Positions 29,351 through 39,655 of a DNA stretch of 51,111 bases are shown one piece after another; the stretch's first letter is position 1, and each line of letters starts with the position of its first letter. The translations under genes and the position numbers were made by a program. Source of the stretch: Escherichia phage tunus; the sequence record NC_049816.1. The stretch is one strand, 5' to 3'. Below the pieces are notes generated by a model. That model saw nothing but the letters and a program-made list of their open reading frames with translations, was not told the origin of the DNA and did not search any database.

Positions 29351-30242
29351 ACACTTTGACCTTCCACTTAACCATCGTTCCGCGCTTGATGCTGATCTCA
29401 CCTGCAACGGTGCGGTTTTTTGCGCCGCCGTAGTGAAGCAGAAGAATAACAACGTCATCATGAATCTCGATCGTCTTTGGTGTAGCCGTTACTTCAAACC
29501 ACACACCATCATCAAGCCGGACTCCTTTTAGCGTGGCTGCAACTGGCATATCTTCAATTGCGCCCTGCGTTACGATTTCTTGATTTGCAAAGGCGCTCTT
29601 GTCAATACGCCAGCCTCCAGGCGCTTTCATTTCGGCAGCCGCTTTGTGGATCTCATCGCCAATGATTTTCTGAATTGACGTCTTACCGCCGCCGAATGGA
29701 GTTTCTCCAAATAAGTGTTTTGTAATGTCTTCCACGTAGTACACTTTATCTTTTTCGTTGTGCGGATTGAAATCGTTGTGAGCATTGACAAAGAAATCAA
29801 CTTTCAACCCTGATTTCTGACCATCGCTATAAACGCCATTGTCGCGTGATGTGAAGCGAATCGTTGAGTTACCAGTTGTGTGGAACGTGATCGGATACTT
29901 GATATTGTCCACACTTAAGCACCACAGCTTTTTGTAGTCGCAGGTTTTCATATTGACCATCGGAATCTCTGCGCGTTCCGGTGAGCGAACTGGTAACACC
30001 TGGCCCTTGTATGGCTTGTAGTGGAAGCTGGTATATCCTGGCATTGCGTAGCCATAGTCTTTAAGTGCGTTGTAGTGCTTGTTATGTGCATCAATGAAGT
30101 GTTCAATCTCCATGCTTGATGGCTCACGCTTGTAGCTATACAAATCAACCTTATGGCATGTTTTTTCATCGGTAAAAATGTAATGACCAATGCCGCGAGA
30201 TTCGAAGGTGATCGGGAATTTAATGTCAGCAAGTTTTAACAT
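29349..30242 (-). CDS. Hypothetical protein with internal N-terminal tandem duplication
   Basis: 297 aa, strong RBS AGGAGG; two homologous about 50-aa segments (IKFPITFESRG...IEHFIDAHN vs IKYPITFHTTG...VDFFVNAHN). Confidence 0.5.
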   Translation of the reverse strand: MLKLADIKFPITFESRGIGHYIFTDEKTCHKVDLYSYKREPSSMEIEHFIDAHNKHYNALKDYGYAMPGYTSFHYKPYKGQVLPVRSPERAEIPMVNMKTCDYKKLWCLSVDNIKYPITFHTTGNSTIRFTSRDNGVYSDGQKSGLKVDFFVNAHNDFNPHNEKDKVYYVEDITKHLFGETPFGGGKTSIQKIIGDEIHKAAAEMKAPGGWRIDKSAFANQEIVTQGAIEDMPVAATLKGVRLDDGVWFEVTATPKTIEIHDDVVILLLHYGGAKNRTVAGEISIKRGTMVKWKVKV

Positions 30243-30257
30243 TGTGTTTCCTCCTAA

Positions 30258-30440
30258 TTACTTAATTCTAACTTCAACGTCAATATCTGAGCTAGGGGCG
30301 AATAGCTGCGCCTTGCCATTTACACGAATGGTAAGAATGTTCTCTTTGCGGCAGTTATCCAGCACTAGGCGATATTTGCCAGCAAACTTAACCATCATTC
30401 CCGGCTTGACTTCGCTCATTTTGATGATCTTATCCATCAT
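30258..30440 (-). CDS. Hypothetical protein
   Basis: 60 aa, ATGATG start with RBS AAAGGGG; preceded by the 200-nt leader. Confidence 0.45.
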   Translation of the reverse strand: MMDKIIKMSEVKPGMMVKFAGKYRLVLDNCRKENILTIRVNGKAQLFAPSSDIDVEVRIK

Positions 30441-30636
30441 TAACCCCTTTCACATAAATAACCGTTTAATCTTTGGTGACGGGCTTCACTTCGTCGGTAG
30501 CCTCAGCTCAGTGACCTATCTAGCGTTCTGCCTGGTGGCGAGTGTGATAGTTCTGGCCTCACGGTTGGGAATCCTGACACTTCGATCAAGCCCCTGCGTT
30601 ACTCCTCTCCCGCAGCAATCCTTGCCGCCCGTCTAT
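30441..30636 (-). ncRNA. Candidate structured RNA / cis-regulatory leader (about 195 nt, GC-rich, no ORF)
   Basis: Lies between a promoter module and the 30440 start; no start-codon-initiated ORF on the transcribed strand; possible closing helix GACGGGC...GCCCGUC and internal hairpins. Confidence 0.3.
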
Positions 30637-30642
30637 GTGTGT

Positions 30643-30688
30643 ATTATGCCTGGTTATCGCTTTTGAGTTTTAACAAAAAGTGCTATTT
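30643..30688 (-). promoter_or_regulatory. Phage promoter module (box + 19-bp spacer + CATAAT)
   Basis: Exact box AAATAGCACTTTTTGTTAAAA on minus strand. Confidence 0.5.
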
Positions 30689-30872
30689 AGAATTTTACCT
30701 CTTCCACAAGCTCAACCATCTTGTAACCAAGACGATAAGAGTCACCGAACAACAAGATCCCCATAAATTCATCGTGGCTTATTGACTCTTTGCCAACCGT
30801 TCTAAGCTCGCCGTTGTGAATCACAGTATCGCCGATCTTGATTTCTGATTTATGGACTAATTTCGTTTTCAT
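30687..30872 (-). CDS. Hypothetical protein
   Basis: 61-aa ORF with weak Shine-Dalgarno GGGTGA. Confidence 0.4.
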   Translation of the reverse strand: MKTKLVHKSEIKIGDTVIHNGELRTVGKESISHDEFMGILLFGDSYRLGYKMVELVEEVKF

Positions 30873-30887
30873 TTATTCACCCGCTAA

Positions 30888-31073
30888 TTAAAAGAACGCT
30901 ACATAGTTTGCAATGCCTTTGGCGTCGTCGTTTGGCATTGCTTTTACAGCCAGGTCATAACCTGCCTCTACCTTCTGCTTTGCTGTTTCTTCGTTGTAGC
31001 CCCAGATAACCAGGATTTTAACTACGTTTTCTTTGTTCAGGACTTTAAGGTCTTTGGTGATGCGACGTGCCAT
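30888..31073 (-). CDS. Hypothetical protein
   Basis: 61 aa, RBS GAGGAAAC. Confidence 0.4.
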   Translation of the reverse strand: MARRITKDLKVLNKENVVKILVIWGYNEETAKQKVEAGYDLAVKAMPNDDAKGIANYVAFF

Positions 31074-31910: not shown

Positions 31911-31939
31911 ATTATAAAAGCTATTTGGTGCGTGTCAAT
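31911..31939 (-). promoter_or_regulatory. sigma70-type early promoter TTGACA-N17-TATAAT (leftward)
   Basis: Consensus hexamers; resembles the promoter at 1554-1581. Confidence 0.55.
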
Positions 31940-32374
31940 GTTTTTGTTGTATTCAAAACGTTACCAATATCGAAAAACTACAAAATCATGCGCAAGTTAT
32001 TGATTTCGCGGCTGTTATTTTTCTGTTCACTCTGTTAACGCAATCCGCCGGAAAAAGTATATATACATATGCAATCCGCCGCGCGCGCAACTATCCATAT
32101 ATACCCACACACAACCACACCATAACCAACAAAAAGCACTGTAACAGTGAGAACAAAAAGAAAACATTATAGATATATATAAATAAATAATCTTTATTTT
32201 CAATGTATTATAGAGGATTTTCTTTGTTTTTTCCGTTTTCGCTACACCGGAAAACCGCGCGGAAACACGCCGCCTGAAATCGGTAACAGGGGTGAACAAA
32301 AGACAACAACCACTGACAGCCAGGCGGAAAAGTGAGGCAAGAGGGGAAGGTTTCACTATCTCCCCTGCAACCAA

Positions 32375-32463
32375 TGATTAAACGTGATTACTTTTCTCAT
32401 CAAATTTGCAAAGGCAATCATCATTTTGACGTGATTTGATTACGAATGATTACTTTTGATTAT
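32375..32463. repeat. Phased GATTA(C) direct repeats (iteron-like)
   Basis: Five TGATTA/GATTAC copies at about 32376, 32386, 32438, 32448, 32458, the last three exactly 10 bp apart, just upstream of the rightward promoter module. Confidence 0.45.
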
Positions 32464-32491
32464 TTCGATCGCAATCCTGGCGATAACCGTC

Positions 32492-32537
32492 AAATAGCAC
32501 TTTTTGTTAAAACTCAGGCCACCTGATCGGGTACATT
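32492..32537 (+). promoter_or_regulatory. Phage promoter module (box + 19-bp spacer + TACATT)
   Basis: Exact box; transcript would start near the conserved CATCGAAACGAACC. Confidence 0.5.
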
Positions 32538-39280: not shown

Positions 39281-39655
39281 TATCCAGTAAAGACAAATCA
39301 GCACAAGAAACACAACCACGCATATGATTACTGGATCGTACCATCTGCCGTTATTACCCTGCACGACCTGAATTTTGTCTGCCTTGATGGTATTGGCCTG
39401 AATGGTTGATGTTGTGAAATCCTTCTTGCTGGACGTGTCCACCTTGTCAACCGCAGATTCCTTTATTGTGGTTTCCTGTTTTGTGCTGGCGTCCTGCTTT
39501 GCTGTAATGCCAACTGTCTGCTTCACGTTCTCCGCTCCAGCCTGTGCTGTGATTTCCGGCTTACTGCCGATTAATCCGGTCAGTGGCGTAACGCTTGAAC
39601 ATCCAGACAAGATCACCGCCATTGCGATTGGTGTAAGTAAAAAATTCTTCATCAT
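39260..39655 (-). CDS. Unimolecular spanin (lipoprotein with C-terminal transmembrane anchor)
   Basis: Signal peptide with lipobox LSGC, periplasmic Lys/Thr-rich region, C-terminal TMD; last gene of lysis cassette. Confidence 0.7.

What the first reader, a model, noticed from the sequence alone, without database searches (positions are those of the whole stretch)
30441..30640. About 200-nt GC-rich leader with no ORF: candidate structured RNA
Other promoter modules are 25-35 nt from their gene, but the module at 30643-30688 is followed by about 195 nt before the 60-aa gene at 30440. The segment is visibly more GC-rich than its flanks and has no start-codon-initiated ORF on the transcribed strand. 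It has complementary ends (GACGGGC near the 5' end, GCCCGUC near the 3' end) that could close a multi-hairpin domain. I found no tRNA-like D or T arm.
Basis: partly seen in the sequence, partly recalled or inferred. Interest (0 to 1): 0.65.

Follow-up and report, generated by a model that had tools for sequence, protein, structure and literature searches.

The report
New structured phage leader RNA
The GC-rich gap is a real, previously uncatalogued folded RNA of about 155 nt that unrelated enterobacterial phage groups carry at the very start of an early transcript; what it does is not yet known.

Summary
Window 30476-30637 (- strand) encodes a ~155-nt structured RNA. It starts 1-4 nt after the predicted transcription start of one of about 20 repeated promoter modules. 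It ends about 37 nt before the 60-aa gene, and that last stretch is an ordinary CA-rich leader.

Homologues occur once per genome in 170 of 50,697 phage records. They fall into three lineages: Warwickvirus and other Tempevirinae, Jilinvirus and Dhillonvirus. In each lineage the element directly follows a promoter and precedes unrelated genes.

A 52-nt core is nearly invariant, while five helices change by compensatory substitutions. In the fitted alignment 89% of cells pair, against 31-47% in slid controls. 26 pairs change on both sides, against 5-9.

There is no Rfam match, no tRNA, no conserved ORF and no E. coli homologue. Single-sequence folding energy is unremarkable, so the evidence is comparative.

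Close relatives (SECphi27, ECOO78, KLPN1) have the same promoter and leader without the element. It is therefore a portable insertion.

Function is inferred only. I favour a cis-acting, promoter-proximal RNA that acts on host RNA polymerase, like HK022 put, at about 0.35. A trans-acting RNA, a host-factor-controlled leader and a ribozyme remain open.

The parts
30669..30684 (-). Upstream box AGCACTTTTTGTTAAA of the repeated promoter module that drives the element
   Evidence: One of about 20 copies in the window. The same box type precedes the element in other Tempevirinae and in one Jilinvirus contig.
30643..30648 (-). -10-like hexamer CATAAT. The predicted transcription start is about 6-8 nt downstream (~30637), so the RNA begins 1-4 nt before P1. 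This is an inference.
   Evidence: In Dhillonvirus and Jilinvirus canonical TTGACx-N16/17-TAnnnT promoters sit at the same distance from P1.
30476..30637 (-). The structured RNA domain (whole element)
   Evidence: Covariance model R1: 144.4 bits, E 3.9e-40, full-length match, and the only copy in the 51-kb window.
30627..30633 (-). P1 5' strand, GACGGGC
   Evidence: Pairs with 30478-30484. All 8 model pairs of P1 show changes on both sides. P1 is recovered by constrained folding in most lineages.
30614..30626 (-). P2 hairpin GGCAA-GGA-UUGCU. The stem varies and the (A)GGA loop is kept in all lineages shown.
   Evidence: Stems seen: GGCAA/UUGCU, GCA/UGC, UGC/GCA, AGCUAUA/UAUAGCU.
30601..30613 (-). 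5' strand of the P3 arm: 2-bp P3-lower (GC, 30613-30612), purine-rich loop GGGAGA (30611-30606) and P3 GGAGU (30605-30601)
   Evidence: P3: 100% of cells paired, with A-U (17 sequences) and G-C (19) alternating at one pair. P3-lower: C-G invariant, and its neighbour is A-U x12, G-C x11, G-U x3.
30561..30599 (-). P3a arm: ACG/CGU, a CA/AAC internal loop, GGGG/UCCC, an AU bulge, CUUGAU/GUCAGG and the loop CGAAGU. This is the nearly invariant core.
   Evidence: 95.6-100% of cells paired. Rare changes are compensatory: C-G to U-A in L029, U-A to G-U in L035, U-G to U-A in L027.
30505..30558 (-). Long arm: P6 (30558-30553 with 30511-30505), P4 (30550-30546 with 30520-30516), a conserved internal loop (ACA / AACGCUA) and the P5 hairpin (30542-30528)
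   Evidence: P4: 6 of 6 pairs change on both sides, 95.8% paired. P5: 3 of 5 pairs change on both sides, 100% paired. P6: 3 of 6 pairs change on both sides, 78.7% paired; its register differs between lineages.
30488..30502 (-). 3' strand of the P3 arm: GGCUACC (P3, with bulged A at 30498), loop GACGAA (30495-30490) and GU (P3-lower, 30489-30488)
   Evidence: AGGCYAYCGACGAAG is nearly invariant in all 36 sequences. Together with GGAGA on the other strand it fits a kink-turn-like signature. That reading is an inference from memory of the Kt-7 kink-turn consensus, not a test.
30478..30484 (-). P1 3' strand, GCCCGUC
30441..30477 (-). Ordinary CA-rich unstructured leader (ACCAAAGAUUAAAC...) with the Shine-Dalgarno sequence AAAGGGG (30450-30444). 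It is not part of the fold.
   Evidence: It resembles the short leaders of the other promoter modules. The Shine-Dalgarno region is predicted mostly unpaired (mean P(unpaired) 0.70). Tails in other lineages are comparable.
30258..30440 (-). The 60-aa gene (phrog_8121, unknown function), first gene downstream. It is not functionally tied to the element.
   Evidence: An 86%-identical homologue in Klebsiella phage KLPN1 sits behind an ordinary promoter and short leader with no element.

Best explanation
SHOWN (confidence at least 0.95). Window 30476-30637 (- strand) encodes a member of a conserved family of structured non-coding RNA domains of about 155 nt.

The fold is as follows.
- P1 is a closing helix joining the 5' and 3' ends.
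- A first three-way junction carries P2, a short hairpin with a conserved (A)GGA loop, and the P3 arm.
- The P3 arm is a 2-bp helix, then a 6x6 purine-rich internal loop (GGGAGA/GACGAA, kink-turn-like), then a 5-bp helix.
- A second three-way junction carries the nearly invariant P3a arm and a long, variable P6-P4-P5 arm.

The domain is a portable module. It always lies between a sigma-70-type promoter (the RNA starts 1-4 nt before P1) and an otherwise ordinary CA-rich leader with a Shine-Dalgarno sequence. It occurs once per genome, upstream of unrelated genes, in three phage lineages that share no other specific gene.

INFERRED (about 0.35). The domain acts in cis and without any phage protein. 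As the first RNA to leave the polymerase, it folds and binds a conserved host machine. RNA polymerase itself is the most likely partner, which would make elongation resistant to pausing and termination, as the put RNAs of phage HK022 do.

This would explain four observations:
- it is always promoter-proximal;
- it is never a stand-alone gene with its own terminator;
- it is indifferent to which genes follow;
- its core sequence is frozen across phages of Escherichia, Salmonella, Klebsiella, Enterobacter and Serratia.

In Dhillonviruses it heads the 12-kb replication and recombination operon. That operon contains three strong intrinsic terminators, each abutting the next gene's ribosome-binding site with no room for a promoter.
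For: Family and fold.
- 170 phage records carry the element.
- 36 distinct sequences were collected from IMG/VR, metagenomes and GenBank.
- Independent RNAalifold helices are. Constrained folds recover the remaining helices in most lineages.
- G-U pairs outnumber A-C cells 141 to 57, as expected for an RNA read from this strand.

Position.
- A promoter lies directly upstream in every lineage.
- There is one copy per genome in the window, HK578 and Arya.

Portability.
- SECphi27 keeps the promoter and the first 17 nt, followed by a mini-hairpin.
- Jilinvirus ECOO78 and Webervirus KLPN1 have the promoter and an ordinary leader only.

Downstream genes and partners.
- The downstream proteins are unrelated.
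- No phage protein is shared by the window, HK578 and Arya except an endolysin.

Operon context in HK578.
- Terminators lie at 34731-34712, about 31990-31970 and 28656-28640. Each ends 25 nt or less before the next ATG.
- The first two are conserved in all seven Dhillonvirus loci examined.
- About 135 of about 157 Dhillonvirus records carry the element.

Against: - There is no experimental evidence of any kind.
- The element is unrelated to put in size and fold: about 155 nt with about 8 helices, against about 70 nt with two stem-loops.
- In the window itself no intrinsic terminator is predicted within 6 kb downstream. Each few genes there have their own promoter module, so antitermination would have little to act on.
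- In Jilinviruses the unit the element heads is a short cassette. It ends in a terminator that is followed by a new promoter.
- The element is dispensable in Warwickvirus and Jilinvirus relatives.
- Internal promoters in the HK578 operon cannot be excluded. One weak candidate lies at 32822-32794.
Confidence: 0.35

Rival explanations
1. Trans-acting stable RNA, an RNA 'moron'. The domain is released from the 5' end of the mRNA, for instance by RNase E cleavage in the CA/AU-rich tail just after P1. It then binds or sequesters a conserved host factor such as a defence, RNA-decay or translation component. The promoter is merely borrowed and the downstream gene is irrelevant.
For: - One copy per genome.
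- Presence/absence polymorphism among close relatives, as for accessory genes.
- It transfers between unrelated phages independently of flanking genes.
- The 5' and 3' ends are paired in a terminal helix, as in many stable RNAs.
- P1 is often followed by ACCA or ACCU.
- The P2 loop (A)GGA in a short hairpin resembles CsrA-type binding sites. This last point rests on my own knowledge and was not tested.
Against: - In none of about 13 independent contexts does the element have its own terminator or stand alone. It is always read straight into an ORF.
- Dhillonviruses do build a tiny promoter-terminator unit right next to it, so that architecture is available to them.
- No complementary target or partner was identified.
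Confidence: 0.25
2. Cis-regulatory leader of the riboswitch or protein-operator type. The junction core binds a small ligand or a host protein. Occupancy sets translation or stability of the first gene or genes of the early accessory cassette.
For: - It lies in a 5' UTR.
- It has multi-way junctions with invariant junction and loop nucleotides and covarying peripheral stems closed by a P1 helix.
- The start codon lies 27-32 nt after P1 in 12 of 17 lineage variants.
Against: - No known aptamer matches, even at E up to 10.
- No conserved alternative pairing was found. The Shine-Dalgarno region is predicted mostly open (mean P(unpaired) 0.5-0.8 in 14 of 16 variants).
- The tail after P1 looks like the ordinary leader found behind element-less promoters, so there is no dedicated expression platform.
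- The downstream genes are functionally unrelated.
Confidence: 0.2
3. A new self-cleaving ribozyme that processes the 5' end of the early mRNA.
For: - Invariant junction and loop nucleotides with freely covarying stems.
- A modular, mobile distribution in phage intergenic regions with no link to gene function. From my own knowledge this is typical of twister, hatchet, pistol and hammerhead ribozymes.
Against: - No known ribozyme family matches.
- It is larger than most small ribozymes.
- Being fixed at the extreme 5' end is not needed for a ribozyme.
- The prior for a new ribozyme class is low.
Confidence: 0.08
4. Not an RNA element at all: a small protein gene (sense strand, or the antisense ORF annotated in some GenBank records) or a DNA-level site.
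For: - An antisense frame is stop-free across the element in 12 of the 13 representatives, L008 being the exception.
- It is annotated as a hypothetical protein in ExeQuayColi and PT1.
- Dhillonvirus and Jilinvirus copies have one open sense frame.
Against: - The same invariant nucleotides are read in different frames in different lineages (SRLGILTLRS against TVGNPDTSIR).
- 1-2-nt indels separate the lineages.
- A 52-nt run has no third-position variation, while variable positions are paired and compensatory.
- The window copy has stops in all three sense frames.
- There is an excess of G-U over A-C.
Confidence: 0.03

Closest known systems
HK022 put RNAs (putL, putR): protein-independent processive antiterminator and anti-pausing RNAs
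   Same: Both are phage-encoded RNA. putL also lies immediately downstream of an early sigma-70 promoter. It acts on whatever follows and needs no phage protein. The sequence is strongly conserved, as expected for a contact with host RNA polymerase. In Dhillonviruses the element heads an operon interrupted by intrinsic terminators.
   Different: put is about 70 nt, two stem-loops in a V shape with a minor-groove triplex (PMC9378689). This element is about 155 nt with two three-way junctions and about 8 helices. No sequence relationship was established. HK022 has two put copies, whereas these phages have one. The copy in the window has no downstream terminator.
Lambda nut / rrn boxB-boxA leader antitermination sites
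   Same: Promoter-proximal RNA signals at the head of early operons. The layout promoter - RNA site - first small gene - terminator - recombination genes in HK578 parallels lambda pL-nutL-N-tL1-exo/bet (the lambda map is from my own knowledge).
   Different: nut sites are short (boxA plus a 15-nt boxB hairpin) and need N and the Nus factors. No conserved boxA is present. The tail motif UUAAC/UUAAAC only loosely resembles one. The adjacent gene is not conserved, so it cannot be a dedicated partner.
Riboswitch aptamers and other Rfam 5'-leader elements
   Same: A 5' UTR location, a closing P1 helix, multi-way junctions with invariant cores, and covarying peripheral helices.
   Different: No match to any of 4227 Rfam 15 models. 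No expression platform. No coherent downstream gene function.
Candidate structured RNAs from large viral screens (Fremin, Bhatt and Kyrpides 2023, PMC10690425)
   Same: That screen mined IMG/VR intergenic regions, where 22 copies of this element are found. It reports cis-regulatory candidates consistently upstream of genes.
   Different: The paper names no such motif in its text. Its supplementary lists were not readable here, so I could not check whether the element is among the 10,006 unnamed candidates.

Membership tests
Any described RNA family (Rfam 15, 4227 covariance models) | Score at or above the family's gathering threshold, or at least a suggestive E-value | tested here: not met
   0 matches at gathering thresholds in the whole window. 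With permissive filters on 30200-30900 the only hit is a plant microRNA at E = 7.1 on the opposite strand.
HK022 put RNA | About 70 nt, two stem-loops in a V shape, 5' triplex (PMC9378689) | tested here: not met
   The element is about 155 nt with two three-way junctions.
HK022 put RNA | Located just downstream of an early promoter, in cis to the operon it serves | tested here: met
   P1 starts 7-10 nt after the -10 hexamer in all lineages. It is always followed by same-strand genes.
HK022 put RNA | Terminators downstream that must be read through | tested here: inconclusive
   Met in Dhillonvirus: three terminators abut the next genes. Not met in the window or in L031 and L027, where none lies within 5-6 kb. 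In Jilinvirus the terminator is followed by a new promoter.
HK022 put RNA | Binds the RNA polymerase beta' zinc-binding domain and suppresses pausing and termination without protein factors | not testable with these tools
   Needs in vitro transcription or genetics with rpoC mutants.
Riboswitch | Expression platform: conserved alternative pairing that hides the Shine-Dalgarno sequence or forms a terminator | tested here: not met
   The Shine-Dalgarno region is mostly unpaired in partition-function folds of 16 variants. No terminator lies between P1 and the ATG. The tail looks like the ordinary leader of element-less promoters.
Riboswitch | Association with genes of one pathway | tested here: not met
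   The first downstream proteins are unrelated: acidic proteins, a lipoprotein and various 49-313-aa unknowns. The window's neighbours have no known function.
tRNA / tmRNA / tRNA-like structure | Cloverleaf or tRNA-like domain with a T arm | tested here: not met
   ARAGORN finds nothing in the window. No hairpin abuts the 3' strand of P1.
tRNA / tmRNA / tRNA-like structure | 7-bp acceptor-like stem followed by NCCA | tested here: inconclusive
   In the window P1 is 7 bp, starts with G and is followed by ACCA. ACCA or GCCA follows P1 in about 6 of 16 variants and ACCU in 2. The rest differ.
Protein-coding small ORF | The same reading frame kept open and conserved across relatives | tested here: not met
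   The frames differ between lineages, and the window has stops in all sense frames.
Kink-turn motif (as a sub-structure) | A C-stem, a 3-nt bulge, tandem sheared G.A/A.G pairs, then an NC stem | tested here: inconclusive
   The sequence fits on the P3 side...ACC-GAC-GA... opposite ...GA-GGRGY. The other side has three extra nucleotides before the 2-bp helix. There are no 3D data, and the consensus was recalled from memory.

The most novel reading that the evidence does not exclude
The element is a horizontally mobile RNA 'moron'. It is a stable trans-acting RNA, or a new ribozyme or sensor, that unrelated virulent enterobacterial phages acquire by slipping it between a promoter and an existing leader. 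It neutralises or hijacks a conserved host factor such as an immune sensor, an RNA-decay enzyme or a global regulator. That would make it an RNA-only counter-defence or takeover gene of a kind not yet described for these phages.
Probability: 0.25. Interest if true: 0.9.

Novelty: new variant of a known kind. Interest (0 to 1): 0.72.

Why it matters
Only a handful of structured RNAs with known roles are known in virulent coliphages. This one has a frozen 52-nt core and textbook covariation. It is exchanged between three phage groups as a self-contained module, which points to a strong, general and host-directed function that needs no phage protein.

If it modifies RNA polymerase, it would be the second known class of protein-independent antiterminator RNA after put. 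It would also explain how Dhillonviruses express a replication operon that is interrupted by terminators. If it acts in trans or is catalytic, it would be a new class altogether.

The hypotheses are directly testable, because carriers include model and collection phages: HK578 and several BASEL phages, such as HeidiAbel (Bas97) and JohannBuxtorf (Bas84). Natural element-less controls also exist (SECphi27, ECOO78).

Tried and rejected
- Rfam at gathering and permissive thresholds, and ARAGORN: nothing.
- Single-sequence thermodynamics: z = +0.69, uninformative. Unconstrained minimum-free-energy folds recover only part of the comparative structure.
- Host origin: no blastn match in 5,426 E. coli genomes. 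One scan of 185,579 species' genomes found a single hit, a phage-sized 42.7-kb contig binned as a Cereibacter metagenome-assembled genome.
- Literature: no paper holds the core sequence. The ACCGACGAAG hits were chance, for example an IscB guide against umuDC. Keyword searches for Dhillonvirus or Drexlerviridae RNA and transcriptomes found nothing relevant.
- Remote homologues: degenerate pattern scans of IMG/VR and metagenomes found only the same three lineages plus chance hits. Relatives of the Jilinvirus primase region in Pseudomonas, Ralstonia and Xanthomonas phages have no element.
- A phage-encoded partner protein: none is shared by the carriers.
- Linkage to the 60-aa gene: rejected, because 144 Klebsiella phage records have the gene and KLPN1, the one examined, has no element upstream.
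- Paralogy of the flanking 60-aa and 61-aa genes: none.
- Shine-Dalgarno sequestration by the P1 3' strand or the 5' end: only 4-bp complementarities, not conserved.
- Replication origin or primer RNA: rejected, because the element is dispensable in relatives and G-U pairs mark an RNA-level fold.
- Resemblances judged to be chance, from memory: ops (GGCGGCAGGATG against GGCGGTAGnnTG, lacking the essential T6), rrn boxA, sarcin-ricin GAGAGGA, the 5S GAAGUGAA, the type I-F CRISPR repeat, and putL's 5' AGACG. None is conserved across lineages.

Full report
What the window is.
The window is a T1-like siphovirus genome. It is 99.9% identical over the region to Escherichia phage ExeQuayColi, genus Warwickvirus, family Drexlerviridae. 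It carries about 20 copies of a promoter module, aATAGCAC(T/G)wwTTGyTAAA-N19-yATAAT (28 matches against 7.1 expected). Each gene-proximal copy is followed by a short CA-rich leader and a gene. The module at 30684-30643 is the only one followed by a long gap.

Checking the observation.
The gap is real. It is richer in GC than its flanks (0.56-0.57 against 0.37-0.44). It has no ATG- or GTG-initiated ORF on the transcribed strand; the only ORF there is a 28-aa TTG ORF. The complementary ends GACGGGC and GCCCGUC are at 30633-30627 and 30484-30478. ARAGORN finds no tRNA or tmRNA. Rfam 15 has no match at gathering thresholds in the whole window, nor at E up to 10 on this strand. The minimum free energy of the 200 nt is ordinary (-51.9 kcal/mol, z = +0.69). 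Thermodynamics alone therefore says nothing.

Relatives.
The 205-nt segment alone matches 170 of 50,697 phage records by blastn. It matches none of 5,426 E. coli genomes. The matches fall into three unrelated groups:
- Warwickvirus and other Tempevirinae (about 20 records);
- Jilinvirus (PT1, Arya, IME279, Lumpael, MQ-4, HeidiAbel and others);
- Dhillonvirus (HK578-like, about 135 records).

In most of these records nothing is annotated there. Pattern scans of IMG/VR, metagenomes and 185,579 species' genomes added contigs of the same three kinds only. Together they give 36 distinct sequences. A covariance model built from them finds exactly one copy in the window (30476-30637, 144 bits), one in the whole HK578 genome and one in the whole Arya genome.

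Structure.
A 52-nt stretch, GGAGAGGRGYAACGCAGGGGCYKGAUCGWAGUGUCAGGAUUCCCAACCGUGA, is almost invariant. So are CACU, AGAACGC and AGGCYAYCGACGAAG. Between these blocks the sequence differs freely, but always in pairs:
- P4 reads CUAUC/GAUAG, CGCAC/GUGCG, CAUUGG/CCAAUG, CCAGGU/ACCUGG, CCUGGU/ACCAGG, CCCGGU/ACCGGG, CAUGAU/AUCAUG and UUGAUC/AUCAAG.
- P5, P1, P2, P6 and one pair of P3 behave the same way.

On the model-fitted alignment 89.1% of cells form standard pairs, against 31-47% when the 3' partners are slid by 1-3 columns. 26 pairs change on both sides, against 5-9. The covariation score is 0.369 against at most 0.062, and no shuffle of 500 reaches the observed values.

That alignment leans towards the model. 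RNAalifold on the plain MAFFT alignment is an independent check, and it returns P3, P3a, P5 and a further 2-bp helix whose outer pair covaries (A-U 12, G-C 11, G-U 3). When only P3 and P3a are forced, minimum-free-energy folding recovers P1, P2, P4, P5 and P6 in most lineages. G-U cells outnumber A-C cells 141 to 57, as expected for an RNA read from this strand.

The resulting model has these parts:
- P1 closes the domain.
- A tight three-way junction carries P2, whose stem varies and whose (A)GGA loop is constant.
- The P3 arm contains a 6x6 purine-rich loop, GGGAGA/GACGAA. Its P3-proximal half fits a kink-turn signature. That is an inference from memory, not a test.
- A second three-way junction carries the frozen P3a arm and the variable P6-P4-P5 rod.

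Not coding.
The window copy has stops in all three sense frames. Where a frame is open, the invariant core is read in different frames in different lineages. Lineages also differ by 1-2-nt indels. The antisense 'hypothetical proteins' annotated over the element in some records are therefore most likely artefacts.

Anatomy of the locus.
In every lineage P1 begins 7-10 nt after the -10 hexamer of a promoter. The promoters are the T1-type module, or canonical TTGACx-N16/17-TAnnnT promoters in Dhillonvirus and Jilinvirus. The RNA's 5' end is therefore essentially the start of P1.

After P1 comes a 27-32-nt CA-rich, mostly unpaired stretch with a Shine-Dalgarno sequence and the start codon of a gene. 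That stretch looks like the ordinary leader found behind promoters that lack the element. The first downstream proteins are unrelated to one another.

Close relatives show the element to be an optional insertion:
- SECphi27 keeps the promoter and the first 17 nt, followed by a mini-hairpin, and lacks both the element and the 60-aa gene.
- Jilinvirus ECOO78 has the same terminator and promoter as PT1, but an ordinary leader.
- Klebsiella phage KLPN1 has an 86%-identical 60-aa gene behind an ordinary module.

No phage protein other than an endolysin is common to the window, HK578 and Arya.

The element is thus a self-contained, horizontally exchanged RNA module. It needs only a promoter, and its partner, if it has one, must be supplied by the host.

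How it may work.
None of this is shown. A modular element with no dedicated expression platform argues against a classical riboswitch. The frozen core argues against a mere 5' stabilising hairpin.

Three features fit a cis-acting signal for the transcription complex of the put type. The element is always promoter-proximal. It is always read into genes. It never has its own terminator, even though Dhillonviruses place a tiny promoter-terminator unit right beside it.

The best contextual support comes from HK578. There the element heads the 12-kb leftward operon: gp44, gp43, gp42, exonuclease, single-strand annealing protein, DNA polymerase, helicase and methylases. The operon contains three strong intrinsic terminators. 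Each U-tract runs straight into the next gene's ribosome-binding site. The first two are conserved in all seven Dhillonvirus loci examined. The element is near-universal in that genus.

Against this reading:
- The copy in the window has no predicted terminator within 6 kb.
- In Jilinviruses the cassette ends in a terminator that is followed by a new promoter.
- The fold is unrelated to put.

I therefore put the put-like mechanism at about 0.35. The other readings are a released trans-acting RNA at 0.25, a host-factor- or ligand-controlled leader at 0.2, a new ribozyme at 0.08, and 'not an RNA element' at 0.03.

Novelty.
The element is not in Rfam 15. The text of 8 million papers and preprints does not hold its core sequence. 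A 2023 screen of IMG/VR lists 10,006 unnamed candidate RNAs, and I could not inspect those lists. An anonymous prior listing therefore cannot be excluded.

As a kind of thing, a structured phage leader RNA has precedents. As a family and a fold it appears to be new.

Noticed in passing
window, about 20 sites, e.g. 31147, 42200, 43249 (- strand); 36106, 32496, 34188 (+ strand): The repeated promoter module aATAGCACTTTTTGTTAAAA-N19-yATAAT has non-canonical spacing: 22 nt from TTGTTA to the -10, or 19 nt from TTAAAA. Many copies hold a GC-rich inverted repeat inside the spacer (CCAGGCgcgaaGCCTGG, CCCGGCctagtGTCGGG, GGCGCgatggattGCGCC). These could be operators or terminator-promoter hybrids. The module at 30684 lacks the repeat.
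   Followed up: partly
L002 (SECphi27) 1714-1815, aligned to window 30220-30720: The element-less relative keeps CATAGACGGGCGGC and then reads GCGGTGTCGCCCACTAAACC. This is a mini-hairpin GGGCG/CGCCC with a Jilinvirus-like tail. It looks like an internal deletion of the element together with the 60-aa gene.
   Followed up: partly
L007 (HK578) 1336-1430: Just upstream of the element's promoter, Dhillonviruses have a second promoter (TTGAAA-17-AATAAT). About 60 nt later comes an intrinsic terminator (GCGCCG-N13-CGGCGC-U9). This is a possible ~65-nt small RNA or attenuator.
   Followed up: no
L053 (HK578) 34731-34712, ~31990-31970, 28656-28640: There are three strong intrinsic terminators inside the leftward replication operon. 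Each U-tract merges into the Shine-Dalgarno sequence of the next gene (UCUUUUUAGAGGA, UUUUUAAUAGGA, AUUUUUGGGAGA). This implies regulated or leaky read-through.
   Followed up: partly
window 30424-30666 (+); L001 1735-1977; L004 1490-1696: GenBank records annotate a 'hypothetical protein' antisense to the element (ExeQuayColi CDS0077, PT1 QIG65642). Its frame is not conserved between lineages, so it is probably a gene-calling artefact caused by the C-rich antisense strand.
   Followed up: yes
window 30687-30872 (-): The 61-aa gene just upstream of the element is 73% identical in protein sequence to HK578 gp48, which lies elsewhere in that genome. This is another sign of gene exchange between T1-like phages and Dhillonviruses.
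   Followed up: no
window 30474-30477 and the equivalent positions in other lineages: The P1 3' strand is followed by ACCA in the window, L031, L004 and L013, by GCCA in L050, and by ACCU in Dhillonvirus and L036. In the window P1 is 7 bp and starts with G. This looks like a tRNA acceptor end and is unexplained.
   Followed up: partly
L054 (Arya) ~39400-39470 (L020, about 1850 nt after the element): After the terminator that ends the element's cassette there are four spaced GTCACC repeats (TTGTCACCTGGTCACCACTTAGTCACCTACTTGGTCACC). They lie upstream of the 'late transcriptional activator' gene and are a probable operator array.
   Followed up: no
window 31913-32495: This is an ORF-poor divergent control region of about 580 nt. 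A perfect-consensus promoter (TTGACA-16-TATAAT, 31938-31911, - strand) faces the first rightward module (32496). The region contains a very AT-rich stretch (GC 0.23-0.27 at 32100-32250) and a terminator-like hairpin (32149-32137).
   Followed up: no
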